Shown here piece after piece: positions 922-17,027 of a stretch of DNA of 64,000 nt. Origin of the DNA: Terrimicrobiaceae bacterium (GTDB lineage Bacteria > Verrucomicrobiota > Verrucomicrobiia > Chthoniobacterales > Terrimicrobiaceae). The translations under genes and the position numbers were made by a program. Location: positions 59 to 64,058 of the forward strand of contig JBILMW010000002.1 in the NCBI GenBank assembly GCA_044375335.1, read 5' to 3'. Below the pieces are notes generated by a model. That model was not told where the DNA came from and did no database searches. It saw only the letters and a program-made list of their open reading frames with translations. Each line of letters starts with the position of its first letter. Positions within the stretch are counted from its first letter, which is position 1.

Positions 922-1075
922 CTCGACCCTCGACCCTCGACCCTCGACCCTCGACCCTCGACCCTCGACCCTCGACCCTCGACCCTCGACCCTCGACTCT
1001 CGACTCTCGACTCTCGACTCTCGACTCTCGACTCTCGACTCTCGACTCTCGACCCTCAACCCTCAACCCTCAACC
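922..1075. repeat. heptanucleotide tandem repeat, 22 units: (CTCGACC)x10 (CTCGACT)x8 (CTCGACC)x1 (CTCAACC)x3
   Basis: Counted directly from the sequence with perfect unit phasing. Intergenic, ending 82 nt upstream of the first glycan gene (start 1158). Confidence 0.97.
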
Positions 1076-1157
1076 CTCGTAACTTCTCCTGCCCATAGGC
1101 GGACCCGTCACGCCGGAGTCGCGTAGCGCGTAGGCGGATCACTTCCTCCTTCTTCTC

Positions 1158-4149: not shown

Positions 4150-5363
4150 ATGTTTGTTATTATTAATTTTAAGAGTTTAGTAAATTCTTTTGCATTTGAA
4201 TTGAGAAGACTAAGAAAGGTTCATTCGATTTTGAGATTTTTAAGAAGGTCTATTTGGCATGGTTTAAAAGAAGGTCTATGGGAGTTTTTAAGAATTATTT
4301 TGAAAGATTGCAAAAAATTGGGCCCCCCTTCCAAAACATTTTCAATTTATAAGGAATTACGTGCTCAAAATCCAGCTTACTCCGGAAAAGTAATAACTGA
4401 AGATCAAGGAACACCATATGTAGAACAAGATTCCGTAGTCATAAAATCAAGATTAAGACAGCATTTGGAACAACCTTGGCCTGTCGTATGGAGCGAGCAC
4501 ACGGATCAAAGACTGATCTCTCATTCACTTGCTTTAGTTAATGAAGATAAGGAGCTATGCATAGAATCAGTTTATGGATATGAAAGATTGCGAGATGACC
4601 CAGCTAGCAAATATCTATTTTGGGAAAAGGAAACTTATCTTTCTGGAAAATGGACAAGTATTGTGTCGAACTGGAATCGATTGGATGGAGTTCCGATTTA
4701 CGGTCATTGGCTTCATGATGCGCTTCCACGACTTACTTATTTGGATGAACTGCCATCAGACACCGGAATTCTTGTTCCTAATGAATTGAAGCCAATACAT
4801 TGGGAGGCTTTAGAATTACTGGGTGTAAAAGATCGCTGCAGGCCTACAAAAGAAACCAATATTATTGTTTAAAAGTATTATTTTTCTTCTCCAACATCAA
4901 TGATTACCTGCTATAACCCATATGGCATTAATTGGATGCGAAAAAAACTTCTTCCTAAAGCCGATAAAGATTTAACGGGCCCAAAAAATTCTTTTTTGCC
5001 CGAAGTGGAAAAAATAGGTCCATCGGTAATATTGCGGAAATCACCAATGAGATTCAAAACATGGGGTGGACTGTAGTTAATGACTTGGATTTCAATTTTT
5101 CACAAACGATCAAGTTGTTTTCCGAGGCAACGAATGTGTGTGGATTTCTTGGGAGTAACATGTCTAATGTCATATTCTGTCAGGAGGGATGTAAAGTAAC
5201 CACTCTTGTTCTTGATTTTTGGCCAGATGGTTTTGTTGATTTGATAGCATGCCATCTAAACCTAAATCACCAATCGTTTACTTTACCTGCAGGTGGACCT
5301 TTTGTGCATACACCTATTGTAAAAGCTGCGAATGTAGTTTCTGCCCTAAAGAAAAGAATTTAA
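4150..5363 (+). pseudogene. decayed GT61/DUF563-family glycosyltransferase (in-frame TAA plus 1-nt frameshift)
   Basis: The N-terminal part (4150..4872) carries YGHWLHDALPRL. The C-terminal part (frame of 5061..5363, readable from about 4968) carries FFFARSGKNRSIGN...LFSEATNVCGFLGSNMSNVIFC. Both are typical of one roughly 400-aa DUF563 protein. It is interrupted by TAA at 4870-4872 and by a frame change near the A6 tract at 4983-4988. Confidence 0.65.
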
Positions 5364-5376
5364 CGCTTTGTAATTT

Positions 5377-6921
5377 ATGTCACGCTCGAAGCATTTTATT
5401 ACGGGATTGCTATCAAGTTATGCGGCAATATGCGTCAACATTCTTTATACGCTGGCATCGGTTCCTTTGGCATTACACTATCTTGACAAAGATGAGTTTG
5501 GGCTTTGGGCCTTGGTGACGCAGCTTTCGGGTTATTTGATGCTTCTCGAATTTGGGATGAATGGCGCTGTCGCTCGCTCCCTTTCCGATCACAAGGACCA
5601 TGTTGAAGATGGTATCTATGGCAGCATCTTGCGCACAGGTTCGCTTGTTTTTGCGATTCAGGGCGGGCTCGTAGCAATTTCAGGAATAGCTCTTGCTTGG
5701 TTTGCCGCTCCTTTTTTTGGACTCCCGCCCTCAATGGAGAGTTCGTTCACGATTCTAATGGCGGCACAAGCCGTGCTGAGTGGAATACGCCTCTCGCTGA
5801 CCACTCTGGGCTCTCCTTTATGGTGTAACCAACGCCTTGATTTGAGCAATCTTGCCACCAGCTTGAGCCTCGTAGTGGCTTTTTTTGTTTTATGGCTTGG
5901 CTTTTACATGGGGTGGCATCTCTACAGTTTGCTGATCTCAGCAGCAATAGGATCCATCGTTACCTTGACGTTCTGTTATTTATCCTGCAAACGACTCGGA
6001 TTGTATCCCTCGCACCAATACAAGGGGCGATTTGATCCTGCGATTTTCCGCAAATTGTTTCATTTTGGAGGCGGTCTTTTTTTAATGAATTTGGGAGCTC
6101 AGTTTGCATCGGCAAGTCAAGTTATTATCATCAGCCGCATTCTCGGCATTGAAGCTGCAGCAACATGGGCGATTTGCACCAAGGTCTTTACTATGGCGCA
6201 ACAATTTGTCTCGCGTATTTTTGATTCCTCTGCCGGCGGCTTGGCGGAAATGGTCGTCCGCGGCGAATTCAGTCGCTTACAAAAACGCTTTCGGGATTTA
6301 GTTGCGATCTCTGCAATCATGGCTAGCGCAGTAGGTGCCGGCATCGCTCTCATGAATGGTTCCTTCGTAGAGCTTTGGACTTCGGGAAAAGTGACATGGT
6401 CTCCTTGGAACAACTACCTTCTGGCTTGCGTGCTGTTTATTACCACTGTTACACGCTGCCATATAGGGCTTAGCGGAATCACAAAACACATTAGTGGCAT
6501 GAAGTATGTTTATCTCATCGAGGGCATTGTGTTTGTCTCTGTTTCAATTCTCGTTGTGCCTAGCATGGGATTTATCGGTCTGCTAACGACCGCTTTACTT
6601 TGTAACCTGGGAATTACTGGAACTTATGGAGTATATCGAACAGGTGCATTTTTTCGAATCCCTCGCCTCGAAGTTGTTGCATGGGTCGCGCGTTCGGGCG
6701 GATTCATCATGCTCATTGCCGGACTTTTTTCCTTGTCATTTATTCCCTCCTTCTCGGCGCTCGACACCAAATTGCAGCTGTGCTTGGAGGGCCTTGCCTT
6801 TGGAATGATAGTGTTTCCTTCAGCTTGGTTTATATCGACGACTAAAGAGCTTCGTATAGAAATCAAATTAACCATCTGTAATATATTTCGAAAAATTTTT
6901 CAAATTCGTAAACCTATTTAA
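5377..6921 (+). CDS. wzx: oligosaccharide flippase (MOP/Wzx family)
   Basis: 514 aa with about 12-14 hydrophobic segments. N-terminus (LLSSYAAICVNILYTLASVPLALHYL..EFGLW) is typical of polysaccharide-biosynthesis flippases. Lies inside a glycosyltransferase cluster. Confidence 0.75.
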   Translation: MSRSKHFITGLLSSYAAICVNILYTLASVPLALHYLDKDEFGLWALVTQLSGYLMLLEFGMNGAVARSLSDHKDHVEDGIYGSILRTGSLVFAIQGGLVAISGIALAWFAAPFFGLPPSMESSFTILMAAQAVLSGIRLSLTTLGSPLWCNQRLDLSNLATSLSLVVAFFVLWLGFYMGWHLYSLLISAAIGSIVTLTFCYLSCKRLGLYPSHQYKGRFDPAIFRKLFHFGGGLFLMNLGAQFASASQVIIISRILGIEAAATWAICTKVFTMAQQFVSRIFDSSAGGLAEMVVRGEFSRLQKRFRDLVAISAIMASAVGAGIALMNGSFVELWTSGKVTWSPWNNYLLACVLFITTVTRCHIGLSGITKHISGMKYVYLIEGIVFVSVSILVVPSMGFIGLLTTALLCNLGITGTYGVYRTGAFFRIPRLEVVAWVARSGGFIMLIAGLFSLSFIPSFSALDTKLQLCLEGLAFGMIVFPSAWFISTTKELRIEIKLTICNIFRKIFQIRKPI

Positions 6922-6927
6922 TTATAA

Positions 6928-7668
6928 ATGAGCTCTAAAATAAATCAACTTATCAGCCGACTTCTGAAAATTGCACTGCGAAATCCCCAAGATCTTAAAC
7001 ATATTCTAGGTGTGACAAATTGGGCAGCTGGAGAAATTCTTGATCCTATGGTTGATATTCGATCGATACCATCAGTCGATCTCTTTGATATATGCCCAGG
7101 AACGCGTTTGACACTACAATCCCTCCCAGGCATTAGATCTTCAATTAGCCCATTAGAGTGCGCCGCACTCGCGGCCCTATCGCACTCTGTAACTGCTAAA
7201 AGAGTTTTTGAATTTGGGACTTACAAAGGTGTTTCCACTACCCAACTCGCTCTAAATATCGCCGCTGATGGCATGGTATTTACCCTTGATCTTCCCGAAG
7301 AGCATCCAGCCTACAGGCTGCCAATTCCAAGACTCGATGAACAGGAGATTACCCTTGAATCCGGTAAAGGCACACTTGTTCCGCATGACTTACTGGACCG
7401 AGTAACTTTCCTGAAATCTGACTCAGCATGCTTCGATGAAAAACCCTACCACGGGATTATGGACCTCGTGTTTGTCGACGGCGCCCATAGTTACGAATAT
7501 GTAAAAAACGATACGGAAAAGGGTTGGCTCATGCTTCGCTCTGGCGGAATACTCGCATGGCACGATTGCGCTCCGCACCATAAAGATGTAGTTAAGTATA
7601 TTAAAGAATGCGGGCTAAATTTAAATCTCGTAAAAGGCACTGCGCTGGCATTTGCAACGAAAAGATAA
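6928..7668 (+). CDS. class I SAM-dependent methyltransferase (Methyltransf_24-like)
   Basis: VFEFGTYKGVST (SAM-binding glycine motif) and DLVFVDGAHSYEYVKND...GGILAWHD. Confidence 0.75.
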   Translation: MSSKINQLISRLLKIALRNPQDLKHILGVTNWAAGEILDPMVDIRSIPSVDLFDICPGTRLTLQSLPGIRSSISPLECAALAALSHSVTAKRVFEFGTYKGVSTTQLALNIAADGMVFTLDLPEEHPAYRLPIPRLDEQEITLESGKGTLVPHDLLDRVTFLKSDSACFDEKPYHGIMDLVFVDGAHSYEYVKNDTEKGWLMLRSGGILAWHDCAPHHKDVVKYIKECGLNLNLVKGTALAFATKR

Positions 7669-7686
7669 ATACGAAAACATTTTTTT

Positions 7687-8535
7687 ATGGGCCTTGATAT
7701 TAAAGCAATCCGATTTCTTCTGGGAGAAAAAGCCCGAGGTATACAATTTGGGAAAACGCTTACACTCGGCCGACAAAGTCTTTATATGAGTCAGCAAGAG
7801 CTTGCTGAACTTTCAAATAAAATAAATATTGAATTATTTAGCTCGAGCTTTGCAGATGATTTTTTGGCATACCTTGCTGGGATTCCCTCGCTGAGCATGG
7901 ATGCGTCAGCTTACGAGGGGGCGCAAATCATTCATGACATGAATTTTCCAGTGGAAGAAAAATACCATGACTCATTTGATACCATTATTGATGGAGGGAC
8001 TCTTGAGCATGTTTTTAACTTCCCAATGGCAATTAAAAATTGCATGGAAATGTTAAAGGTGGGTGGATCCCTAATTTTTATGACTCCATGGCATAATTTT
8101 TCAGGACACGGTTTTTACCAGTTTAGCCCTGAGCTTTTCTATAGCACTCTTTCTGATGCAAACGGATTTCAGCTCGAGCGGATGCTGATTGCAGTAGAAG
8201 GATATTGGTATTCGGTAAAAAATCCTTCCATAGTAAATGAGCGCGTAGAAATTAAAACTGACGAGGAAATTTTACTTTTCGTAACGGCACGAAAAACTTC
8301 GATTTCAAAAATCTTCGAAAACTGGCCACAGCAATCCGATTACTGCGCCGCTTGGAAATTCGAGACACATGATTGTTTAAAGGAAACGCCTATTTCCATT
8401 TATCAAAATTTTTTAAATTATTCTATTTTAAGTAAACTTAGATCTTGGTGGCGGGATTATAAAAAACAGAGAAGTAGGAGGCCAAAGAACAATAAGGCTT
8501 TGAAAATTGTTTGTTCTTATAAGGAAATACCATGA
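7687..8535 (+). CDS. class I SAM-dependent methyltransferase
   Basis: FDTIIDGGTLEHVFNFPMAIKNCMEMLKVGGSLIF is a typical methyltransferase type 11/12 post-I to motif III region. Stop overlaps the next start. Confidence 0.7.
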   Translation: MGLDIKAIRFLLGEKARGIQFGKTLTLGRQSLYMSQQELAELSNKINIELFSSSFADDFLAYLAGIPSLSMDASAYEGAQIIHDMNFPVEEKYHDSFDTIIDGGTLEHVFNFPMAIKNCMEMLKVGGSLIFMTPWHNFSGHGFYQFSPELFYSTLSDANGFQLERMLIAVEGYWYSVKNPSIVNERVEIKTDEEILLFVTARKTSISKIFENWPQQSDYCAAWKFETHDCLKETPISIYQNFLNYSILSKLRSWWRDYKKQRSRRPKNNKALKIVCSYKEIP

Positions 8536-9680
8536 AGAAACCGCGTTTTATCGTTGCGTGTCCACAAAGAACCTCGGCAGACTACCACGCTGCTGTTTTA
8601 GTGAAGCATGGCATGCTTCGCAAATACTTCATTGGCACACGGAGACCTACCGATGGTATACCAGAGGAGTTAACATGTTTTATCAAGGCTTGGGGCGCGG
8701 TTGCTACACTAAGCGCCATGGTTTTACCCTCGTATCAGGGCGAGTGGGTTAGATCTGCCATTCATCCACTGTATGATGCGTGGGTTTTACCTCAAATCCA
8801 ACCTGGAGACAATATCATATCCAGCTACGGCTATGCAAATTACTGCTTCAAAAAGGTTAAAAAATTGGAGGGCAAAACCTTCCTTGATGCAGGAAATTCG
8901 CATCCTGCACATTTTTGGGATGTTATTACAGAGGAACATCATATCTGGGGAGTAAAGCGCCCCCCCTATCCTCCGCATTGGAATCAGCGCGCAAGGCAAA
9001 TGCTGGACTCTACAGATTATATCATTTGTCCCAGTCGCTATGTGGAAAAAACCTATCTGGAACGGGGATTTACCAAAGATCGTTTGCTTTACGCTCCATT
9101 TCCGACAGATTTAAGCCTTTTTAAACCAGATTTGGAAACTATTCCTCCTGCCAATCCCCTCTGGGTTATTTGCACGGGAAGTGTCAGTTTAAGAAAGGGC
9201 TTCCCGTATTTACTCGAGGCGGTTCGCTTGCTGAGAAAAGACCGCGATGTGCGCTTGATGCTGACACACATTATTGAAAGCTCAATGATCACTATTTTAA
9301 AAACATACGATGATATTCCCATTGAGTGGGCTCCAAGCCTTAATCATAGAGATCTCGCAAACCGTCTAAAAAAAGCGCATGTCTTTGCCCTGCTTTCTTT
9401 GGAAGATGGTTTTGCAAGAACTGTATCAGAGGCTCTGGCCTGCGGACTTCCAGCAGTTGTCACTCCTCATACCGGGGCCAGAGATTTCATACTGGAGGGC
9501 AAAAATGGCTATGTTGTGCCGATCCGCGATGCAGCAGCCGCCGCTGATGCTATTCAAAAGGCAGCAGATATTCGACTCAGCGGTTTGCGTAGCGATATAG
9601 AGCTGCCCGATCTATCTTTTCAAGCCTTCGAGGCCCAATTTATAAAGGAATTAGCAAGAATTGGCACGACCGGCTTCTAG
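8532..9680 (+). CDS. GT4 (GT-B fold) glycosyltransferase
   Basis: C-terminal EDGFARTVSEALACGLPAVVTPHTGARDFILEGKNGYVVP, the E-x7-E type GT4 signature. Confidence 0.85.
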   Translation: MKKPRFIVACPQRTSADYHAAVLVKHGMLRKYFIGTRRPTDGIPEELTCFIKAWGAVATLSAMVLPSYQGEWVRSAIHPLYDAWVLPQIQPGDNIISSYGYANYCFKKVKKLEGKTFLDAGNSHPAHFWDVITEEHHIWGVKRPPYPPHWNQRARQMLDSTDYIICPSRYVEKTYLERGFTKDRLLYAPFPTDLSLFKPDLETIPPANPLWVICTGSVSLRKGFPYLLEAVRLLRKDRDVRLMLTHIIESSMITILKTYDDIPIEWAPSLNHRDLANRLKKAHVFALLSLEDGFARTVSEALACGLPAVVTPHTGARDFILEGKNGYVVPIRDAAAAADAIQKAADIRLSGLRSDIELPDLSFQAFEAQFIKELARIGTTGF

Positions 9681-9681
9681 C

Positions 9682-10851
9682 ATGAAATGCCTTGTTCTCA
9701 CAAGTGAATACCCTCCGTCCATAGGCGGAGTGGGCAATGCAGCAGCAGCATTCTCTCGAGAGTTTTCCGCACGCGGGTGGGTCATTGAAATTATCACTGT
9801 AGCCACTCATAGCCAAGCATCGAGAGAGAAGGTCCCAGAGGGAATCATCCACAGATTATCGTTGAGTGGAGATTCCAGTTGCTGGAATCCCCTTTCTGGT
9901 GAAGTCGCGAGAGTTGAAGCCTTGATTGCTGACTTCTCACCAGATGTCGCAGTCATTCATGGTTGGCAGGGGTGGTGCACAAGAACCGTGCCGCGTTTAT
10001 ATTCCGCAAAAATCCCTATCGTATTGCAAAGCCATGGATTTGGAATGCATCGAGTGCCATGGCATTGGAGACCACCTTTTGGCCTTAAGGCTTGGGCAGG
10101 TTATCTGCCGTTTATTCTGCGTTTGCCTTCGTTCATTCGAAAATTATCTGCGCTGTCCGTTTTGAGCAAGGAACCAAGATTACTTAAGGGATTTGACCAC
10201 TGGGTTGGCTCACATTTTGGATGTCAAAATGTTGTAACAATTCCCAATGGCGTCAAAAAAATACAAAGTTCACCGCTGGAATTTTTAGAAACCTGTCCCC
10301 TTGCTCTCAATAAGCATATTGTGCTTTGCGTGGCAAATTATTGCGACCGTAAAAACCAATTCCTAGCTTTGGATGTGGCTCGTCAGACTGGAAAAGAGGA
10401 TCTTTTTTTTGCGTTCATCGGAGGTGACCAGAATGCCTATTACAGAGAGCTTGAAAAACGAACTCAGGCATGGGGTCTTGAAAGACGCGTTGCTCTATTT
10501 CATGGCGTTTCCCGTTCATTCACAGAATCTGCGATCCAAGCCTGCGACATCGCACTTATGACTTCCAAGTGGGAAATGCAACCTCTGTTTCTCCTTGAGG
10601 CTATGTCCGCCGGCAGACCTTGGGTATCCACAAATGTAGGGAGCGTTAGCGAACTTCAAGGAGGTATCATCTCAAAAGTTTCGACTAAAAATCTTACGTC
10701 AAATTTATTGAGACTATTAAACGATAAAAAACTTAGGAAGCAGCTAGGGAAAGAAGGGGCGCGCCAATGGGCTACTGAATTTTCAACAGATATGGTTTAT
10801 GATCGCTGGCAAGATCTCCTTCTATCTGCAGTAGGTAAAACTCATCAGTAG
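9682..10851 (+). CDS. GT4 glycosyltransferase
   Basis: MKCLVLTSEYPPSIGGVGN N-terminus and C-terminal WEMQPLFLLEAMSAGRPWVSTNVGSVSEL. The ATG at 9682 was chosen over the ORF-track start 9661 because it directly follows the upstream stop. Confidence 0.8.
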   Translation: MKCLVLTSEYPPSIGGVGNAAAAFSREFSARGWVIEIITVATHSQASREKVPEGIIHRLSLSGDSSCWNPLSGEVARVEALIADFSPDVAVIHGWQGWCTRTVPRLYSAKIPIVLQSHGFGMHRVPWHWRPPFGLKAWAGYLPFILRLPSFIRKLSALSVLSKEPRLLKGFDHWVGSHFGCQNVVTIPNGVKKIQSSPLEFLETCPLALNKHIVLCVANYCDRKNQFLALDVARQTGKEDLFFAFIGGDQNAYYRELEKRTQAWGLERRVALFHGVSRSFTESAIQACDIALMTSKWEMQPLFLLEAMSAGRPWVSTNVGSVSELQGGIISKVSTKNLTSNLLRLLNDKKLRKQLGKEGARQWATEFSTDMVYDRWQDLLLSAVGKTHQ

Positions 10852-10901
10852 CAAACTACTTTTATGCTTAGCTGAAATTCCTATCGAAAAAAACTTTTGA
10901 A

Positions 10902-12050
10902 ATGATTGATATCGTATATGAGAGGCAATGGTCATCGCTAAGCAATTTAGTGCAGGTCCTGATCAACTTGAATAAAATGGGAACCCTATATGGGGGCTTT
11001 CCAAAATGGCGCTACATAAACGCTGGAATACCAAGGGAAATTTTACAAACAAATCCAACCGCAAGTCTTGCGAATTTTGTAATCTCAAAAATCGGTTTGC
11101 CTGCATCACTTATGTTGGATGAACCGAAGATAATAGGAAACTGGGTGGCAAAATTTAGCGATTTGTCTGAAACTTTAATTGTCAATGGAACGGCGTATCG
11201 TATTTTATTTCCAAAACTTAAGGACTCAGCTCGAAAACTCATTCTGGAAAGAGGTTCAATGCATCCATGTGAGTTTTTTAGATTGAACCAGAAAGCCCGA
11301 AAAGAAGCAGGCTATTCTTATACAGATAAGATACCTGTGCCGATACTGGATGAAATCGAGAAGACTTCGCTAGCTGACTTTATTATTGCGGGCAGTCAAA
11401 TGGTGCGCCAGTCCTATGTAGACCATGGTTATCCAGTGAACCGAATTTTTGACTGCAGCTATGGAATTGATGCAGAAAAATATTCATATATTCAAAGAAA
11501 AATTCCAAAGGCTCGGCCAATAAAAATAGGAATTATGGGCGTTGTGGGATTTAGAAAAGGGCTTCTGCGACTTTTAAAAATAGGCTCTTGGGCTCGCAGA
11601 AAAGGTTACAATGTAGAAATTCATTTTGCCGGTCCGATTAGTGATATTGAAGCGCATGACCTTCTACAAAAGACTGACGCTAAATATTACCTTCACGGAG
11701 TTCTTAAGGGGAGCGCTCAAATTCAATTCCTTGAAAATTGTGATCTCTACGCGATTCCTTCGTATGAGGAAGGATTACCTTTTTCATTGCTTGAGGCAAT
11801 GAGCACAGGTTTATTAGCAATAGTAAGTAATGACACCGGTGCCCGCGAAGTTGTCGAACATAATAGAAGCGGGTTTATCTTGCAATCGTTCTCCGACGAT
11901 GAATTTGACAGTATTTTACAGCCTCTCTTCAGTTCACCTGAAAGAATAATAAATATGGGAAAGTATGCCAGAAAAAGAATTACTAGCGAGTATTCTTATC
12001 AGAATTATTTTTCTCGTATTAACCATGCATTAAATTTTATGAATGTGTAG
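10902..12050 (+). CDS. GT4 glycosyltransferase
   Basis: YEEGLPFSLLEAMSTGLLAIVSNDTGAREVVEHNRSGFIL signature. AT-rich gene. Confidence 0.8.
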   Translation: MIDIVYERQWSSLSNLVQVLINLNKMGTLYGGFPKWRYINAGIPREILQTNPTASLANFVISKIGLPASLMLDEPKIIGNWVAKFSDLSETLIVNGTAYRILFPKLKDSARKLILERGSMHPCEFFRLNQKARKEAGYSYTDKIPVPILDEIEKTSLADFIIAGSQMVRQSYVDHGYPVNRIFDCSYGIDAEKYSYIQRKIPKARPIKIGIMGVVGFRKGLLRLLKIGSWARRKGYNVEIHFAGPISDIEAHDLLQKTDAKYYLHGVLKGSAQIQFLENCDLYAIPSYEEGLPFSLLEAMSTGLLAIVSNDTGAREVVEHNRSGFILQSFSDDEFDSILQPLFSSPERIINMGKYARKRITSEYSYQNYFSRINHALNFMNV

Positions 12051-12065
12051 CAAATCATTGATTTT

Positions 12066-12752
12066 ATGAGATTCTTAAAGATGCTAATAAAAAAATGTAT
12101 TTATCAATACTATGGACTAATGCCAGAAATCAAAATTCCGTATGAAACTGTTAATCCAGGGGAGCAGGCATGGTATTTCAAAAAAGGCTCTTTAACTCAG
12201 AATTCCATCGTATACTCTTTCGGTTTAGCAGATAATATAGTTTTTGACATTAATATAATAAAAAGTTACAATGTAAATGTTTTCGGGTTTGACCCAACCC
12301 CATCATCAATTAAGTTTATTTCCAGTTTGGAAATTCCTAAGCAATTTTATCACTTCCCATTAGCGATTGCAGACTATGATGGCGAGCTAGATTTTATTAT
12401 ACCAAGGGATTCTAATATATCTGGATTTTCGAAAAATCTACACAAAAATAGCCAAGATGAATTTACAGAAATTAAAGTATCGTGCTGTAGTTTATCATCA
12501 ATAATGAACAAGCTCGGGCATGACAAAATAGATCTCCTAAAAATGGATATAGAAGGGATGGAATACAAAGTTATTGATCAATTAGTTTCGGAACATCTTG
12601 ATATTAAACAAATCTTGGTTGAATTTCACCATAGATTTTCAGGAATTGGTTTACGCAACACGCTTTTAGCAGTTCAAAAACTGAGAAATTCAGGGTTCAA
12701 GCTTTTTCATGTTTCACCTTGGTGTGAGGAATATGCATTCATTAAAGAATAA
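12066..12752 (+). CDS. FkbM-family methyltransferase
   Basis: VYSFGLADN..., FGFDP and IDLLKMDIEGMEYKVI motifs are characteristic of FkbM-type methyltransferases. Confidence 0.8.
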   Translation: MRFLKMLIKKCIYQYYGLMPEIKIPYETVNPGEQAWYFKKGSLTQNSIVYSFGLADNIVFDINIIKSYNVNVFGFDPTPSSIKFISSLEIPKQFYHFPLAIADYDGELDFIIPRDSNISGFSKNLHKNSQDEFTEIKVSCCSLSSIMNKLGHDKIDLLKMDIEGMEYKVIDQLVSEHLDIKQILVEFHHRFSGIGLRNTLLAVQKLRNSGFKLFHVSPWCEEYAFIKE

Positions 12753-13920
12753 AATAAAGGTTGTAATGACCGTTGCTTGCGCTAATGACCTCAGTGGCGC
12801 GTCAATGCGAGATTTAACGCGCGCATCTCCCGTAGTGCATCCTGCTATAGATAACTTATTAGAAGGATTATCAGAATGTCCTGAATTGGATATTGAGGTT
12901 GTATTTGGTAAAAAATATATCAACGCAAATGATTGTCGAAAGGAGGGGAATATTTTATATACACCCGTATTTTATACTCCTCTTCCCTTCCCAGGTATGG
13001 GTTGGTCTTACCTTGCAAGGTATCAGGCAATCAAAAAATATTTAAAGTCTGTTAAGCCAGATATAGTCCATGCACAAGGCACTGAGAGAGAGTCTGGTAT
13101 CGTTGCTGCTTTTTCAAAATCTCCATCATTGCTAACCCTTCATGGAAATTTTCGGGAAATTTCTAAAATTCTTCCATCTCCATTAATAAGCTACAACACT
13201 GTTAATGCTTGGCTCGAATCAATTGCAATCAAAAAGTGCACTTCTATCCTTTGTATTTCAAAATATACAGAAGCATCTGTAAAATCTCTCAACAAAAATA
13301 CTCATCTCTTACCAAACGCTGTCTCCAGTGTTTTTTTTAACGTTGTTAAAAAAACAGTTCCCGGCAGAGTCGTTTGTGTAGCGTCTATTTCAAGAAGAAA
13401 AAATCAAATCTCTCTTTTAAAATCTTGCGATCAAATAGCGGCGCTAATACCAAACTTTAATTTGCATTTTTGGGGAGATTGTAACACTTCCGATCCGTAT
13501 GCTGTAGATTTTTTACAGCAAATTAAAAGTCGAAACTGGGCTCAATATTGCGGAATTTCTTCATCAACGCAGATGCAAAATATTCTTGCCGAGGCCGAGT
13601 TGATGGTGCTGCCATCAATCGAAGATAATTGTCCAGTTGCTTTACTTGAGGCGATGGCTGCAAGTCTACCAATCCTGGCCACATCTGTCGGTGGGATTCC
13701 GGATTTAATTAAAGAAGGGGTGAATGGATTTTTAGTAAAGCCCGCAGAAATGGACAAAATGGCTCAGCATTTTTTCAGTCTTTTGAGTTCGGATTCAATA
13801 GCAACCGAAATGGGATTAAGATCTAGAGAAATAGCTAAAAAATGCTATTCCCCAGAATATATTGCGCAAAAACATCTTAAAATTTATTGTGATCTTGCTG
13901 GCAAGTCGTTTTTTAAATAG
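12733..13920 (+). CDS. GT4 glycosyltransferase
   Basis: IEDNCPVALLEAMAASLPILATSVGGIPDLIKEGVNGFLV signature. Start taken at ATG 12733 (MHSLKNKIKVVM). The 3' end overlaps the convergent gene by 37 nt. Confidence 0.8.
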   Translation: MHSLKNKIKVVMTVACANDLSGASMRDLTRASPVVHPAIDNLLEGLSECPELDIEVVFGKKYINANDCRKEGNILYTPVFYTPLPFPGMGWSYLARYQAIKKYLKSVKPDIVHAQGTERESGIVAAFSKSPSLLTLHGNFREISKILPSPLISYNTVNAWLESIAIKKCTSILCISKYTEASVKSLNKNTHLLPNAVSSVFFNVVKKTVPGRVVCVASISRRKNQISLLKSCDQIAALIPNFNLHFWGDCNTSDPYAVDFLQQIKSRNWAQYCGISSSTQMQNILAEAELMVLPSIEDNCPVALLEAMAASLPILATSVGGIPDLIKEGVNGFLVKPAEMDKMAQHFFSLLSSDSIATEMGLRSREIAKKCYSPEYIAQKHLKIYCDLAGKSFFK

Positions 13921-15404
13921 GCAGATAAGGATCTGTTAGCCAAGTTCAGCAGTGCTAAATTTGAGATGGCTTGAACCATATCATCGCCTAAAGATCCATA
14001 GATAAAAATAAAACCTAAAGGGCTGTAGATAACACCTAAGCCTAAAAATAAAGCCAATGTAAAAAATGGGGTTCCTTTAGATTTTAAAATAATTGAATAG
14101 GCATACTTAGCATTTGCAAAAATTAGTGTGACGAATAATATAAGACCCACCACGCCAACAAACCTAATTGCAGAAACAGGACCGCTATGATAGCCTCCAG
14201 TTACCAAGAAGTAATCCTGAAGGCCTTCGCTGGTATCCATTCTTAAAGCATTCATCGCAGCCCATCCGCGCAACTCAGAGGGGTCGAAGCCGAATCCGTC
14301 ACCCAGCACTTTATTCTTGATGTATCGATCCGTCGTAAGCGCCAAGCGCCACATTTCTAATCGCCAGTCGACTGTTCCCTTAGCATCTACAGTGGCTCTA
14401 TGGTCCCACGATATGGGAATAAAAGAAAGCGCCCTCTGCGCGGCGAGCGGAACTTGTAACCCTGCCGTTTGAACGATGACAATCATGACAATACCTGCGA
14501 CAGCCGCAGCGAACAACGGAAACACCTGCCGGATGCCGCCGCGAATAAAACTGGCGAGGGCTATCGCGAAAAGCCAACCAATCAAGTTGCTTCGGAATCC
14601 TGACAATAAAACGGCGACCAGCGAGGCAAAGAAGCATGCGGAAAGGAAGATGTTTTGGAAGAATATGAGCTTGAAAATGTTCGCATAGGATATTGCCGCC
14701 TTACCGACTTCCACCCCGAAGCCTGCGAGATAGGCGTGCCTCTCGACTCGGCCAGTGTCCACGGGCTCCATCGGATTGGCTTCGCCGCCCGGCATGAATC
14801 CCGAATACAGTGTCGCCAATCGGAATCCCAAGCCTGGTGCAAAATAGCCTACGAGTCCACTGAGAGCGTTTACAACCGATCCCAAACACATGAGAGCGGG
14901 CAAGAGCATTGCAACTCTCGGTTTGATTGTGACATGCTGGAGAACCCAAAATCCGCAACAGGCCAACAGAATGGCAAAATAGGGCCGCCCACCGATGAGG
15001 TTGGATCTGATAAAATCCACACCCACAGGATTTCGAGCGAATACTGTCGCAAGATACAGCAAATTGCAAATCAGCAGCTTGTCACACCAGTTCAGTCGAG
15101 GAAATCTTGGAATGACCTTCAAGGCCTTGAACAGCACAAATAGCCCGAAGCAAAAGGCCACAGACATTTCGGCAATCGATGCCGGCAACCTGCCTCCGCC
15201 AATTGTCCCGCCCAATCCTGAGCAGAGGGGAATGAGCAGCCAGGCATTTTGTTTCAGCCCCAATGCCCCGACCGCAAGCACGGCGAAACCCACATACATT
15301 CCCAGACGGCTGTAATTGTTCTCCGCCACATTCCGTCCCACAACAATGGCAAAGAGCAAGGCTGCGGCCATCACGACCCCAAGAAAAATTTTGTTCTTAT
15401 TCAT
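13884..15404 (-). CDS. O-antigen polymerase/ligase-like polytopic membrane protein (Wzy-like)
   Basis: 506 aa with at least 10 hydrophobic segments and one larger loop. It is the only minus-strand gene in the glycan cluster. Assigned from topology and context; no unambiguous motif seen. Confidence 0.55.
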   Translation of the reverse strand: MNKNKIFLGVVMAAALLFAIVVGRNVAENNYSRLGMYVGFAVLAVGALGLKQNAWLLIPLCSGLGGTIGGGRLPASIAEMSVAFCFGLFVLFKALKVIPRFPRLNWCDKLLICNLLYLATVFARNPVGVDFIRSNLIGGRPYFAILLACCGFWVLQHVTIKPRVAMLLPALMCLGSVVNALSGLVGYFAPGLGFRLATLYSGFMPGGEANPMEPVDTGRVERHAYLAGFGVEVGKAAISYANIFKLIFFQNIFLSACFFASLVAVLLSGFRSNLIGWLFAIALASFIRGGIRQVFPLFAAAVAGIVMIVIVQTAGLQVPLAAQRALSFIPISWDHRATVDAKGTVDWRLEMWRLALTTDRYIKNKVLGDGFGFDPSELRGWAAMNALRMDTSEGLQDYFLVTGGYHSGPVSAIRFVGVVGLILFVTLIFANAKYAYSIILKSKGTPFFTLALFLGLGVIYSPLGFIFIYGSLGDDMVQAISNLALLNLANRSLSAYLKNDLPARSQ

Positions 15405-15551: not shown

Positions 15552-15773
15552 ACCACGGATGACTCGGATGGGCACGGATGAAGAGGAGCGTGGATGCAGT
15601 CGCCGGGCGACTGAGGCGACGAAAAAACAAACCTCCTGCAAGCGAGCTTGCACGAGTTTCGATTTTTCTCTGCCAATCCCACTTTGCGGGATCATCCATG
15701 CCATCCAAGTGATCTGTGAGTAGGCGCACCACTCATTCTTCCCATCCGTGTTTATCAGTGCAATCGGTGGTTA
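15552..15773. repeat. MITE-like repeat, copy 1 (about 222 bp, imperfect terminal inverted repeats ACCACGGATG.../...CATCCGTG..CGGTGGTT)
   Basis: Aligns by eye over its whole length with 16814..17027, for example the shared core GGATGCAGTCGCCGGGCGA...CCTGCAAGCGAGCTTGCACGAGTTTCGATTTTTCTC. The ends are inverted relative to each other. Confidence 0.85.
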
Positions 15774-15810: not shown

Positions 15811-16782
15811 TTGAATCCAAATTTTAGCATCGTTACACCTATCTTCTGCCAACTCGATTGGCTCAGGTTGTGTATCGCCAGCGTGCAGGATCAAGTAGTT
15901 GCCACGCCCTCGACTCTCGACTCTCGACCCTCAACCCTCTCCATCGAGCACATCATCCAAGATGCGGGCACGCCAGGCATCGAAGACTTGGCTCGAGAAC
16001 TTGGTGCTGAGTTTTACCGTGATGGTCAGCTTGTATTTAGTGAGCGGAAAGAGACGAGAGACAAGCGCCGAGAGACAAGCCAACAGCACTCAAAACCCAC
16101 CAATGAGGATCAATCGGTCTACTCTCTCAAAATTTTCAGCGAGAAGGACGCTGGAATGTATGATGCCATTAATCGTGGCCTTGCGCGCTCTGCTGGAGGG
16201 ATTTGTGCATGGCTTAACTCTGACGAGCAATATCTGCCCGAGACCCTTTCCAAAGTGGCGCAGATTTTTCAGCAGCAAACAAAGTTGGATGTCTTGCTTG
16301 GCGATGCGATTTTGCTTAATTCCTCCTTGGAGGCCATTTGCTATAGGCGAATTATGCTTCCCAGCCTTTGGCATACGCGCCTGGACCATTTGCACTCACT
16401 GAGTTGTGCCATGTTCTTTAAAAAGTCTGCCCTACCAAATCCCCCTTTGAATCCTCGCTGGAAGGTTGTTAGTGATGCAGTTTTGATGGAGCATTTTCTG
16501 TTTAGCAGGAAAAACATCTACGCCTGCCAGTTGCCTCTGGCAGCTTATGCCTTCACAGGACAAAATCTTAGTGCAGACAAGAATTGTAAAGAACTGGACC
16601 AATGGTGGGCGGAAACGCGCTGGCCTCCGCGAGCACTTAAGCCTCTCGTTGTCATTCATAACCGCTTCCGACGATTGCTGGCTGGCGCCTATCAAAATTT
16701 CCAACTGAATACAAAAATCCATACTTCTTTTGGATATAAATCCCTAAAAGAAAGCGTTTCAGGCCTATGGCCAGCCCATTGA
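15811..16782 (+). CDS. GT2 glycosyltransferase containing an in-frame heptamer-repeat tract
   Basis: FSIVTPIF...IEHIIQDAGTPG...DAGMYDAINRGLARSAGGICAWLNSDEQYLP is a typical GT2 (WcaA-like) pattern. TTG start. An extra segment, VVATPSTLDSRPSTLS, is encoded by the CTCGACY/CTCAACC repeat. Confidence 0.8.
   Translation: MNPNFSIVTPIFCQLDWLRLCIASVQDQVVATPSTLDSRPSTLSIEHIIQDAGTPGIEDLARELGAEFYRDGQLVFSERKETRDKRRETSQQHSKPTNEDQSVYSLKIFSEKDAGMYDAINRGLARSAGGICAWLNSDEQYLPETLSKVAQIFQQQTKLDVLLGDAILLNSSLEAICYRRIMLPSLWHTRLDHLHSLSCAMFFKKSALPNPPLNPRWKVVSDAVLMEHFLFSRKNIYACQLPLAAYAFTGQNLSADKNCKELDQWWAETRWPPRALKPLVVIHNRFRRLLAGAYQNFQLNTKIHTSFGYKSLKESVSGLWPAH
15909..15936. repeat. heptanucleotide repeat tract inside the GT2 CDS: (CTCGACT)x2 (CTCGACC)x1 (CTCAACC)x1
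   Basis: Read directly. Same units and same order as the 3' end of the 922..1075 array. Confidence 0.95.
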
Positions 16783-16813: not shown

Positions 16814-17027
16814 AACCACGGATGGGCACGGATAGAAAAGGGCTTGGATGCAGTCGCCGGGCGAATGGGGCGGAGAAACAACAAACTTCCTGCAAGCGAG
16901 CTTGCACGAGTTTCGATTTTTCTCCGCCAACCCCGCTTTCTGGGGATCATCCATGCCACCCGAGCAATCTACGAGTAGTCTCCCCCCATTCTTCCCATCC
17001 GTGTTAATCCGTGTAATCGGTGGTTAA
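16814..17027. repeat. MITE-like repeat, copy 2 (about 214 bp), direct orientation relative to copy 1
   Basis: Same element as 15552..15773. Begins 32 nt after the GT2 stop and ends 20 nt before the next GT4 start. Confidence 0.85.

What the first reader, a model, noticed from the sequence alone, without database searches (positions are those of the whole stretch)
15909..15936. In-frame 7-bp repeat tract inside a GT2 glycosyltransferase gene: candidate contingency (phase-variable) locus
The GT2 gene 15811..16782 contains CTCGACT CTCGACT CTCGACC CTCAACC (28 bp). The tract lies between the conserved N-terminal FSIVTP...SVQDQ block and the IEHIIQDAGTPG block, and encodes an atypical insert ..TPSTLDSRPSTLS... 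Both flanks are in the same frame, so the present 4-unit state is ON. Gain or loss of one 7-bp unit would shift the frame.

The units, and their order, equal the 3' end of the 22-unit array at 922..1075, 15 kb away.

Established knowledge: non-triplet simple sequence repeats in surface-glycan transferases are classic slipped-strand phase-variation switches in Neisseria, Haemophilus, Campylobacter and Helicobacter. I am not aware of a description for heptamers in PVC bacteria.
Basis: partly seen in the sequence, partly recalled or inferred. Interest (0 to 1): 0.75.

Follow-up and report, generated by a model that had tools for sequence, protein, structure and literature searches.

The report
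Decayed in-frame heptamer repeat in glycosyltransferase
A short 7-bp repeat inside a sugar-transferase gene of a freshwater Verrucomicrobium is real and arose by repeat slippage in blocks of three units, but comparison with about 27 related genes shows a stable, decaying loop insert and no sign of an on/off switch.

Summary
Positions 15909-15936 hold CTCGACT CTCGACT CTCGACC CTCAACC, in frame in a GT2 gene (15811-16782). The 31 nt at 15909-15939 are identical to 1034-1064 inside the 22.6-unit array at 922-1079.

The phase-variation reading is only partly supported.
- **Slippage history is real.** Alleles differ by exactly 21 nt, which is 3 units or 7 codons. A second heptamer tract in the same gene (16050-16076) follows the same rule.
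- **No switch signature.** All 27 orthologous DNA loci are in frame at this tract.
- **Length is stable.** The 49-nt length class persists in alleles whose units have decayed by point substitution.
- **The perfect run is short.** Only about 2.9 units are perfectly periodic.
- **No OFF alleles were found.** A search for the product of the 3-unit allele in 5.8 billion proteins returned nothing.

By contrast, the heptanucleotide switch in E. coli neuO has 3-53 units and is out of frame in 66% of genomes.

Both tracts encode low-confidence loops that are only about 5 residues long in distant orthologues. The 5' part of the gene recombines as a module.

Best reading: a slippage-derived, in-frame, low-complexity insert in a permissive loop. 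Side observations:
- Period-7 repeats are over-represented in these Verrucomicrobiota loci.
- CTCGACY arrays, often of exactly 4 units, also occur in many IMG/VR viral contigs.

The parts
15811..16782 (+). GT2-family glycosyltransferase gene (TTG start, 323 aa) in a polysaccharide gene cluster
   Evidence: ORF and translation. PF00535 at 32.3 bits against a cut-off of 23.3, covering residues 108-158 only because two inserts interrupt the N-terminal half. WcaE-like, below cut-off. Neighbours are a Wzy-like protein, GT4 enzymes, a methyltransferase and UDP-galactopyranose mutase. 1723 homologues were found, 120 of them listed at 66-100% identity.
15907..15939 (+). Heptamer tract 1 (CC CTCGACT CTCGACT CTCGACC CTCAACC CTC). 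It encodes PSTLDSRPSTL in the loop between helix 1 and strand 2. It is 21 nt (3 units) longer than the short allele.
   Evidence: TRF 4.7 copies, score 45. L216 and L217 carry the same allele minus exactly 21 nt. pLDDT is below 50 for residues 30-41. Distant orthologues have a loop of only about 5 residues here.
16050..16076 (+). Heptamer tract 2 (AGAGACG AGAGACA AGCGCCG AGAGACA), degenerate. It encodes ETRDKRRET in a second variable loop.
   Evidence: TRF 3.9 copies, 70% matches. The repeat is perfect, (AGAGACG)4.3, in L081, L092 and L093. L082 and L218 lack exactly 21 nt. An unrelated 90-nt allele replaces it in L004, L005, L086, L087, L089 and L095. pLDDT is below 50 for residues 83-100.
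922..1079 (+). Intergenic 22.6-unit array of the same heptamer family: 10 CTCGACC, 8 CTCGACT, 1 CTCGACC, 3 CTCAACC, then CTCG. It ends 79 nt upstream of the WecG/TagA-family gene (1158-1916). Positions 1034-1064 are identical to tract 1.
   Evidence: The array is absent upstream of WecG orthologues of 93% and 84% identity (L213, L215). L214 has a different heptamer, (ACTCGCC)4, at that place.
15565..15773 (.). Upstream copy of a roughly 210-nt intergenic repeat element that brackets the GT2 gene
   Evidence: Direct repeats D1, D3 and D2 are contiguous and 79-89% identical to 16819-17026. BLASTN gives 85% over 211 nt, and the same element occurs in L001, L005, L006, L086-L089 and L095.
16819..17026 (.). 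Downstream copy of the same roughly 210-nt element

Best explanation
The tract is a relic of a heptanucleotide microsatellite that expanded inside a permissive surface loop of a GT2 glycosyltransferase. That loop joins helix 1 to strand 2 of the nucleotide-binding half.

A 7-nt unit shifts the reading frame. Only changes of three units (21 nt, 7 codons) leave a working gene, so only such alleles persist. The window carries the long allele, about 4.7 units, which adds the peptide TLDSRPS or an equivalent register. Relatives carry the precise minus-3-unit allele or older non-repetitive short loops.

After the expansion the units have been decaying by point substitution while the length stayed fixed. 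The window now has only about 2.9 perfectly periodic units. At that size the tract behaves as an ordinary low-complexity linker and not as a hypermutable switch.

The same process acted on a second loop of the same gene (tract 2). The 5' 300-500 nt, which carries both loops, is exchanged between lineages by recombination, and this scatters loop alleles across the gene tree.

Shown: the anatomy, the 21-nt allele differences, the in-frame state of all relatives, the decay of units, and the mosaic structure. Inferred: slipped-strand mispairing as the source of the 21-nt changes, the permissiveness of the loop, and the present low mutability.
For: 1. Length classes of loop 1 in 27 orthologous loci plus the window are 49 nt (11 loci plus the window), 43 (1), 37 (1), 28 (6) and 22 (8). 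All are in frame.
2. L216 and L217 read AGTGGTTGCCACGCCCTCGACCCTATCC, which is the 49-nt allele minus exactly three units. The predicted minus-3 product, QVVATPSTLSIEH, is the sequence seen in P0014 and P0019.
3. Tract 2 shows the same rule: 102 nt against 81 nt in L082 and L218, with a clean loss of three AGAGACR units.
4. Alleles of the same 49-nt length have diverged units. L002 reads CTCGAGG CTCGATG CTGGACT CTCGACC, and L082 reads CTCGCTT CTCAGAT GTCGACC CTCGACG. Substitutions therefore accumulated with no length change.
5. The same-species protein from another assembly is identical through the tract. Three contigs from different samples (L081, L092, L093) share an identical perfect (AGAGACG)4.3 tract.
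6. Within clusters of at least 90% identity, length differences are allele swaps or partial gene calls, not slippage variants.
7. No protein among 5.8 billion clusters matches the frame-2 product of a 3-unit allele.
8. Loop character: pLDDT is below 50 at residues 30-41 and 83-100, between predicted strands and helices, although the model is poor overall. The solved relative 9omh_A aligns significantly only over profile positions 96-147; its N-terminal match (positions 4-32) is not significant. Orthologues of 33-39% identity have about 5 residues in loop 1, for example ADQEDVDLEH.
9. Mosaicism: loop states are scattered over the tree built from the C-terminal part. Window against L004 is 95-97% identical around the tract and 82-88% elsewhere, with unrelated flanks. 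L081 against L092 is 100% identical to position +480 and about 40-70% after that.
10. Period 7 is the over-represented repeat class in these loci. There are 27 arrays of at least 3 exact copies, against 2-5 for periods 5, 6, 8 and 9. This fits published surveys (PMC4060949; PMC4679880 summarising Mrazek et al. 2007).
Against: - Assemblies give consensus sequence only. A minority of out-of-frame cells, a few percent or less, would be invisible.
- Three lineages carry the same substitution in two adjacent units: CTCGCCC twice in L084, CTGGACT twice in L001, CTCAACC twice in L218. This hints at unit turnover by misalignment at constant length, so the tract may not be entirely inert.
- Heptamer tracts with different units recur in the same two loops in distant orthologues: L008, L097, L103, L115/L116 and L130. 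That could reflect selection for mutability and not just tolerance.
- Within about 2 Mb of related loci, CTCGACYCTCGAC occurs only inside this gene family. Pure chance insertion into a tolerant loop does not obviously predict this.
- Permissiveness of the loop rests on a low-confidence model (mean pLDDT 48.5) and on alignment gaps, not on a solved structure.
Confidence: 0.65

Rival explanations
1. Active contingency locus. Slipped-strand mispairing of the CTCGACY units switches the glycosyltransferase ON (4 or 1 or 7 units) and OFF (3 or 5 units) at high frequency. The population would then be heterogeneous in its surface glycan, for example as a defence against phage or grazers.
For: - The architecture is classical: a non-triplet repeat 98 nt into a polysaccharide-transferase ORF.
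- Plus or minus one unit truncates the product.
- Three-unit allele differences at two tracts show that slippage occurs.
- There are hints of unit turnover.
- Heptamer tracts recur in the same loops of distant orthologues.
- A precedent exists: neuO (AAGACTC)n is ON when the unit number is divisible by 3 (PMC13001214).
Against: - Only about 2.9 perfect units are present. Documented heptanucleotide switches have 3-53 units with a mode of 20 (neuO), 13-38 (hmw) or 6-13 (TonB receptor) (PMC13001214, PMC2651432).
- None of 27 orthologous loci is out of frame at the tract, against 66% OFF among neuO genomes (PMC13001214).
- Length is conserved while units decay.
- There is no protein hit to the OFF-state product.
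- The tract is identical in a second assembly of the same species.
Confidence: 0.08
2. Imported element. The 21-28 nt were not generated locally. They were copied by ectopic recombination or gene conversion from a dispersed CTCGACY array, such as the 22-unit array 15 kb upstream or phage-borne four-unit arrays. Those arrays may themselves have a DNA- or RNA-level function, for example as binding sites with one protein per heptamer.
For: - There is a 31-nt exact identity with 1034-1064, spanning two variant boundaries (T to C, then G to A).
- Fifty-two stretches of IMG/VR viral contigs carry (CTCGACY) arrays of at least 3 units. Among 75 distinct arrays, 34 have exactly 4 units, against 2 with 5 units.
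- The commonest pattern, CTCGACT CTCGACT CTCGACC CTCGACT, differs from the window tract in 2 of 28 positions and from the L004 allele in one.
- The same variant units (CTCAACC, CTGGACT) occur in viral arrays and in GT2 alleles.
- Non-repetitive short alleles have only one near-unit (GCCCTCGGC), which is too little for slippage to start from.
Against: - The G-to-A variant that completes the 31-nt identity is window-specific and synonymous (TCG to TCA). L004 and L219 have CTCGACC there, so part of the identity may be coincidence at a mutation-prone CG.
- CTCAAC units are common everywhere.
- The left flank of the viral arrays is just a degenerate unit, so there are no element boundaries.
- Viral contigs share nothing else with the window.
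- The position of viral arrays relative to start codons is mixed: 18 sense and 10 antisense within 40 nt, out of 64.
- WecG orthologues of 93% and 84% identity lack the upstream array.
Confidence: 0.15
3. Selected peptide linker. The Pro/Ser/Thr-rich insert PSTLDSRPSTL is maintained for a protein-level role such as a flexible hinge, an interaction site or a modification site. The DNA periodicity would then be only a trace of its origin.
For: - The 49-nt length is kept in 12 sequences despite many substitutions.
- Outer residues (TPS......STLS) are more conserved than the centre.
- All three frames of the unit encode the same cyclic heptad, so the peptide is robust.
Against: - Eight close orthologues (22-nt alleles) and all distant ones lack it.
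- Central residues vary freely: DSRP, DSGL, DAGL, HSQP, RCRP.
- The segment has low model confidence.
- Loop 2 tolerates wholly unrelated sequences and a 120-126-nt insertion.
Confidence: 0.1

Closest known systems
neuO O-acetyltransferase of E. coli K1 (CUS-3 prophage): 5'-AAGACTC-3' heptanucleotide repeat in the 5' coding region
   Same: - A heptanucleotide unit lies in the 5' part of a gene that modifies a surface polysaccharide.
- Full-length translation occurs only in unit-number classes three apart. Three units make one 7-residue heptad.
- Alleles that differ by multiples of three units are all intact (PMC13001214).
   Different: - neuO has 3-53 perfect units with a mode of 20. Sixty-six percent of genomes are OFF, and about 7% of cells in a culture have a non-modal length.
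- Here there are about 2.9 perfect units, no OFF alleles in 27 loci, and a stable length with decaying units.
- The protein is unrelated. Only GT2 was found (PF00535), and it is chromosomal, not prophage-borne.
Tetranucleotide and other repeat contingency loci in LPS/LOS glycosyltransferases of Haemophilus, Neisseria, Campylobacter and Helicobacter
   Same: A non-triplet repeat inside a glycan-transferase ORF, where one-unit changes cause frameshifts (established knowledge; PMC2651432).
   Different: Those tracts are long and homogeneous and differ in number between strains and within cultures. None of these properties is seen here.
Long simple sequence repeats of prokaryotes (heptanucleotide class) and cyanobacterial or Beggiatoaceae heptamer direct repeats (TAACTGA and related)
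   Same: - Period-7 tandem repeats are the over-represented class (PMC4060949, PMC4679880).
- They are mostly intergenic, sometimes close to start codons, and occasionally read through as heptad peptides inside ORFs.
- The same unit is dispersed over many sites and over unrelated genomes.
   Different: - The unit is different (CTCGACY).
- The lineage is Verrucomicrobiota (Terrimicrobiaceae), for which my literature searches found no report.
- Here the repeat sits inside a conserved enzyme domain.
In-frame low-complexity inserts generated by microsatellite expansion in permissive protein loops
   Same: The insert length is constrained to whole codons, the sequence decays after expansion, and the insert is absent from many orthologues.
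   Different: A non-triplet unit needs three-unit steps, which leaves an unusually clean 21-nt signature at two sites of one gene.

Membership tests
Repeat-mediated phase-variable (contingency) gene | Tandem repeat with a unit length that is not a multiple of three, inside the ORF or promoter | tested here: met
   A 7-nt unit, 4.7 copies, 98 nt into the ORF.
Repeat-mediated phase-variable (contingency) gene | Tract long and homogeneous enough to be hypermutable | tested here: not met
   Only 20 nt (about 2.9 units) are perfectly periodic, and the four units have three different sequences. Known heptanucleotide switches have 6-53 units as a rule (PMC13001214, PMC2651432).
Repeat-mediated phase-variable (contingency) gene | Unit-number polymorphism among close relatives, including out-of-frame alleles | tested here: not met
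   All 27 loci are in frame, and only differences of three units are seen. Clusters at 90% identity or more show no slippage variants. The OFF-state product has no hit.
Repeat-mediated phase-variable (contingency) gene | Reversible ON/OFF switching within a clonal population | not testable with these tools
   No reads or cultures are available. The two look-ups for same-species contigs returned no DNA.
Repeat-mediated phase-variable (contingency) gene | The gene affects a surface structure | tested here: met
   A GT2 gene in a cluster with Wzy-like, GT4, WecG, Glf and methyltransferase genes. Function is inferred from family membership.
neuO-type heptanucleotide repeat (ON in unit-number classes three apart) | Intact alleles that differ by multiples of three heptamer units | tested here: met
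   49 vs 28 nt, 43 vs 22 nt, and 102 vs 81 nt.
neuO-type heptanucleotide repeat (ON in unit-number classes three apart) | Frequent alleles whose unit number puts the gene out of frame | tested here: not met
   None of 27 loci, against 42 of 64 neuO genomes (PMC13001214).
neuO-type heptanucleotide repeat (ON in unit-number classes three apart) | Homology to the NeuO acetyltransferase | tested here: not met
   The Pfam and NCBIfam scans return only GT2-type families.
GT2 (GT-A fold) glycosyltransferase | Match to PF00535 above the gathering score | tested here: met
   32.3 bits against 23.3, E = 1.1e-7. The PDB relative 9omh_A matches at E = 4.9e-9.
GT2 (GT-A fold) glycosyltransferase | Catalytic activity and sugar specificity | not testable with these tools
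   Only sub-threshold resemblance to WcaE, TuaG and EpsD.
Prokaryotic long simple sequence repeats, heptanucleotide class | Excess of period-7 tandem repeats over neighbouring periods in the lineage | tested here: met
   27 arrays with at least 3 exact copies at period 7, against 5, 4, 2 and 3 at periods 5, 6, 8 and 9, in 2.03 Mb. The sample is biased towards polysaccharide loci.

The most novel reading that the evidence does not exclude
This GT2 subfamily may carry a conserved, neuO-like heptanucleotide contingency architecture across Verrucomicrobiota. The evidence is that heptamer tracts of different sequence recur at the same two loops in orthologues of only 37-54% identity. The units are CTCGACY, AGTCGAA, CTCCCAG, GTGCCGC, GCAGGGA, GAAAGGC and AGAGACG.

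On this reading the recurrence reflects selection for mutability. The tracts are renewed from a pool of CTCGACY arrays shared with phages of the same lakes. The window allele is then a temporarily decayed, locked-ON state of a switch that is active in other alleles, such as the perfect (AGAGACG)4.3 allele of L081.
Probability: 0.1. Interest if true: 0.65.

Novelty: new member of a known kind. Interest (0 to 1): 0.3.

Why it matters
Taken at face value the finding would have been the first repeat-driven phase-variable gene in a free-living freshwater Verrucomicrobium. The comparative data do not bear that out.

What remains is a clean natural example of how a non-triplet microsatellite can live inside an enzyme gene. 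Only three-unit steps survive, which leaves 21-nt allele differences at two loops, followed by decay into an ordinary linker.

It is also a practical warning. A short, imperfect, non-triplet repeat in a glycosyltransferase is not sufficient evidence for phase variation.

The side observations may be worth more than the tract itself:
- Period-7 repeats are over-represented in these Verrucomicrobiota loci.
- The same two loops are hit repeatedly in distant orthologues.
- CTCGACY arrays, often of exactly four units, recur in freshwater viral contigs.

Tried and rejected
- **Long-range mRNA pairing.** Tract 1 and tract 2 have units that are 6/7 complementary. Folding 15895-16090 gave z = -0.02, with 92 of 200 shuffles folding at least as well. 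Rejected.
- **Promoter or terminator scans.** Nothing above shuffle expectation around the gene or the array.
- **Same-species DNA from other assemblies.** The contigs carrying P0002 and the WecG protein returned no DNA, so only protein-level identity could be used.
- **L028 as a possible OFF allele.** It showed a partial match. It has several frameshifts with no repeat involved and is only 42% identical. It is either a pseudogene or an assembly with indel errors, and is irrelevant here.
- **L096.** It has a 1-nt deletion in a C-run of the non-repeat loop-2 allele. This is not heptamer-related.
- **Short cluster members (122-180 aa).** They are C-terminal fragments or partial calls, not frameshift products.
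- **The 120-126-nt loop-2 insertion of L006, L090 and L091.** I tested whether it derives from the roughly 210-nt flanking element. There is no significant similarity. Only a 37-nt match to L003 15012-15047 was found.
- **Viral CTCGACY arrays as leaders upstream of start codons.** Of 64 arrays, 18 have a sense start within 40 nt and 10 an antisense start. Inconclusive.
- **Element boundaries.** The conserved left flank of the viral arrays is only a degenerate unit.
- **Structure prediction.** The model was poor (mean pLDDT 48.5), so I made no fold search. I used it only to show that both tracts fall in the least confident segments, between predicted secondary-structure elements.
- **Frame-2 ORF 15899-16402 (167 aa).** I considered it as an overlapping gene. 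It has no homologue.
Full report
**1. Observation**

Positions 15909-15936 read CTCGACT CTCGACT CTCGACC CTCAACC. Tandem Repeats Finder reports 15907-15939 with period 7, 4.7 copies, 88% matches and score 45. It also reports a 22.6-copy array of the same unit at 922-1079 and a weaker period-7 tract at 16050-16076.

Chance can be excluded. The pattern CTCGACYCTCGAC with up to 1 mismatch occurs 22 times against 0.16 expected, and only in those two places. None of 200 shuffles of the window gives a comparable period-7 stretch.

The tract lies in ORF 15811-16782, which has a TTG start and encodes 323 aa. The peptide reads ...SVQDQVVATPSTLDSRPSTLSIEHIIQDAGTPG.... The ORF is a GT2 glycosyltransferase: PF00535 scores 32.3 bits against a cut-off of 23.3. 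Its neighbours are Wzy-like, GT4, WecG/TagA, methyltransferase and UDP-galactopyranose mutase genes.

The 31 nt at 15909-15939 are identical to 1034-1064. That is units 17-20 plus 3 nt of the array, not its very end. Removing or adding one unit gives 194-aa and 68-aa out-of-frame products, while plus or minus three units keep the frame. The main qualification is that only about 2.9 units (20 nt) are perfectly periodic.

**2. Organism and relatives**

The protein has 1723 homologues. The 120 best are 66-100% identical and 260-361 aa long. Genome and metagenome scans returned 160 loci. The close ones are Terrimicrobiaceae (Verrucomicrobiota) genome bins from lakes. Four more loci came from exact-protein look-ups.

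**3. The tract in relatives**

I measured the distance between two conserved flanks in 27 orthologous loci. It takes only these values:
- 49 nt in 11 loci plus the window
- 43 nt in 1 locus
- 37 nt in 1 locus
- 28 nt in 6 loci
- 22 nt in 8 loci

All are in frame.

L216 and L217 read AGTGGTTGCCACGCCCTCGACCCTATCC. This is the long allele minus exactly three units. Their peptide QVVATPSTLSIEH is what deleting three units from the window predicts. The 43-nt and 22-nt alleles differ by the same 21 nt.

Alleles of the 49-nt class differ strongly in sequence:
- L004 and L219: CTCGACT CTCGACT CTCGACC CTCGACC
- L084: ...CTCGCCC CTCGCCC
- L001: CTCGACT CTGGACT CTGGACT CTCGACG
- L002: CTCGAGG CTCGATG CTGGACT CTCGACC
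- L082: CTCGCTT CTCAGAT GTCGACC CTCGACG

Many point substitutions have therefore accumulated without any change of length. In a hypermutable tract the opposite is expected, because length changes should far outrun substitutions.

**4. A second tract with the same rule**

Positions 16050-16076 (AGAGACG AGAGACA AGCGCCG AGAGACA) encode ETRDKRRET in a second variable segment.
- In L081, L092 and L093 the repeat is perfect, (AGAGACG)4.3.
- In L082 and L218 exactly 21 nt are missing.
- In six loci an unrelated 90-nt sequence (HAKECGVGV...) takes its place.
- In L006, L090 and L091 that alternative allele carries a further 120-126-nt in-frame insertion.

The only frameshift seen in a close relative is L096, a 1-nt deletion in a C-run of the non-repeat allele.

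**5. Search for OFF alleles**

- Clusters at 90% identity or more contain members of different length. These are allele replacements with different N-termini, or partial gene calls.
- A second assembly of the same species encodes the identical tract (P0002).
- The frame-2 product that a 3-unit allele would make has no match among 5.8 billion protein clusters. A caveat applies: a gene caller might prefer a downstream restart, and frame-2 peptides diverge quickly.
- For comparison, the heptanucleotide switch of E. coli K1 neuO has 3-53 units. It is out of frame in 42 of 64 complete genomes and shows about 7% non-modal lengths in one culture (PMC13001214).
- The heptanucleotide switches proposed in H. 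influenzae have 6-38 units (PMC2651432).

**6. Where the inserts sit**

The AlphaFold model is poor, with mean pLDDT 48.5. Its least confident N-terminal segments are residues 30-41 and 83-100. They lie between strand 1/helix 1 and strand 2, and just before the YSLKIFS strand.

A profile of the family aligns significantly to the solved glycosyltransferase 9omh_A only over profile positions 96-147. The N-terminal match (positions 4-32) is not significant. The region between the two matches is about 45-50 residues longer here than in the solved chain.

Orthologues of 33-39% identity have about 5 residues in loop 1, for example ADQEDVDLEH. Both tracts therefore lengthen loops that the fold does not need.

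**7. Mosaic gene**

Loop states are scattered over a tree built from the C-terminal 620 nt. Pairwise identity profiles show recombination:
- Window against L004 is 95-97% identical around tract 1 and 82-88% elsewhere, with unrelated flanks on both sides.
- L081 against L092 is 100% identical up to +480 and about 40-70% after that.
- Window against L086 is divergent in the first 300 nt and 85-95% identical from there into the downstream flank.

The 5' module that carries both loops is exchanged between lineages. For this reason I did not count independent length changes on the tree.

**8. Observations that keep a door open**

- Three lineages have the same substitution in two neighbouring units (L084, L001/L081, L218). 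This suggests occasional unit turnover at constant length. One of the three is a G-to-A change at a CG that is common everywhere, so I regard the signal as suggestive only.
- Distant orthologues carry period-7 tracts in the same loops, with other units or the other strand:
  - L097 has (CTCGACC)2.7, and so does its tandem paralogue.
  - L008 has AGTCGAA x3.9 plus CTCCCAG x3.3 in loop 1, and CCCTCGA x3.1 in loop 2.
  - L103, L115/L116 and L130 have other units.
- In 2 Mb of related loci, CTCGACYCTCGAC occurs only inside this gene family.

These points fit a tolerant loop in a lineage rich in heptamer repeats. Period-7 arrays number 27, against 2-5 for periods 5, 6, 8 and 9, which agrees with PMC4060949 and PMC4679880. 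They do not exclude selection for mutability.

**9. The distant array and the wider repeat family**

The array at 922-1079 consists of 10 CTCGACC, 8 CTCGACT, 1 CTCGACC, 3 CTCAACC and a final CTCG. It ends 79 nt before the WecG/TagA gene. WecG orthologues of 93% and 84% identity have no array there, and one of 89% identity has (ACTCGCC)4 ending 22 nt before the ATG. The array is therefore a lineage-specific expansion.

A scan of IMG/VR found (CTCGACY) arrays of at least 3 units in 52 stretches of viral contigs with G+C about 0.6.
- Two of them come from the sample that yielded the L007 genome.
- Many others have IDs in the same numeric block, and it is only an inference that they are the same lake series.
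- Of 75 distinct arrays, 30 have three units, 34 have four and only 2 have five.
- The commonest patterns are CTCGACT CTCGACT CTCGACC CTCGACT and CTCGACT CTCGACC CTCGACC CTCGACT.
- The variant units CTCAACC and CTGGACT occur there as well.
- Nothing else is shared with the window.

The GT2 tract thus belongs to a dispersed repeat family. I could not decide whether it was copied from another array or grew in place. The window-specific synonymous G-to-A change that completes the 31-nt identity argues for at least partial coincidence.

**10. Verdict**

The most likely explanation (about 0.65) is a slippage-derived, in-frame, low-complexity insert in a permissive loop, now decaying and length-stable, carried on a recombining 5' gene module. 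The rivals are:
- An active phase switch (about 0.08).
- Import from a dispersed and possibly functional array (about 0.15).
- A selected peptide linker (about 0.1).

The mechanism it resembles most closely is the neuO "rule of three". The membership tests for a contingency locus fail on tract length and homogeneity and on out-of-frame polymorphism, and within-population switching could not be tested. I score it as a new member of a known kind, with interest 0.3.

Noticed in passing
window 922-1079: A 22.6-unit intergenic CTCGACY array in blocks (10 CTCGACC, 8 CTCGACT, 1 CTCGACC, 3 CTCAACC), ending 79 nt upstream of the WecG/TagA gene. Orthologues of 93% and 84% identity lack it, and L214 has (ACTCGCC)4 ending 22 nt before the ATG. 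By gene coordinates, a 990-nt contig from another sample starts inside the array. It is a much better candidate for a hypermutable repeat than the GT2 tract.
   Followed up: partly
L161-L212 (IMG/VR viral contigs): (CTCGACY) arrays of at least 3 units occur in 52 stretches. Among 75 distinct arrays, 34 have exactly four units, 30 have three and 2 have five. There are two stereotyped unit patterns, several arrays per contig, some arrays 4-15 nt before an ATG, and some arrays paired with inverted copies. Function and hosts are unknown.
   Followed up: partly
L001-L160 and the window (2.03 Mb): Period-7 tandem repeats are over-represented: 27 arrays with at least 3 exact copies, against 2-5 for periods 5, 6, 8 and 9. 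Many loci carry pairs of heptamer arrays in inverted orientation, which could form hairpins (for example L043, L064, L065, L070, L071, L072, L036, L073 and L023).
   Followed up: partly
window 15565-15773 and 16819-17026: The GT2 gene is bracketed by two direct copies (about 85% identical) of a roughly 210-nt element. The element has CACGGATG/CATCCGTG-type inverted ends and an internal 29-nt-arm palindrome (16869-16928). The same element is dispersed between genes in relatives (L001, L005, L006, L086-L089, L095).
   Followed up: partly
L006 9340-9468; L090 and L091 10271-10388: A 120-126-nt in-frame insertion in loop 2 of the GT2 orthologue (peptide ...DSFLTNKFHSPHKKHDAKRHFRSVSSVRSVV...). It is not related to the 210-nt element. 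Only a 37-nt match to L003 15012-15047 was found. Its origin is unknown.
   Followed up: partly
L097 8700-8830 and 9627-10544: Loop 1 of this GT2 orthologue carries CTCGACC-type units. A second GT2-like N-terminal segment about 900 nt upstream, apparently a paralogue (only 130 nt were read), carries them in a different reading register (TPRPSTPPS against ESTLDPRLTP).
   Followed up: no
L096 loop 2 (about 9330-9420): A single-base deletion in a C-run (GGCGTCCGCC against GGCGTCCCGCC) puts this orthologue out of frame. It is either a pseudogene or an assembly error, and is unrelated to heptamers.
   Followed up: no
window 5000-14000: G+C is 0.417 here against 0.52 for the whole window and 0.54-0.57 beyond 24 kb. 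This fits a horizontally exchanged polysaccharide gene block. The flanks of the GT2 gene are unrelated between close orthologues.
   Followed up: no
window 15899-16402 (+, frame 2): A 167-codon ORF overlaps the GT2 gene in the frame that a 3-unit allele would enter. It has no homologue among 5.8 billion proteins, so it is most likely spurious.
   Followed up: yes
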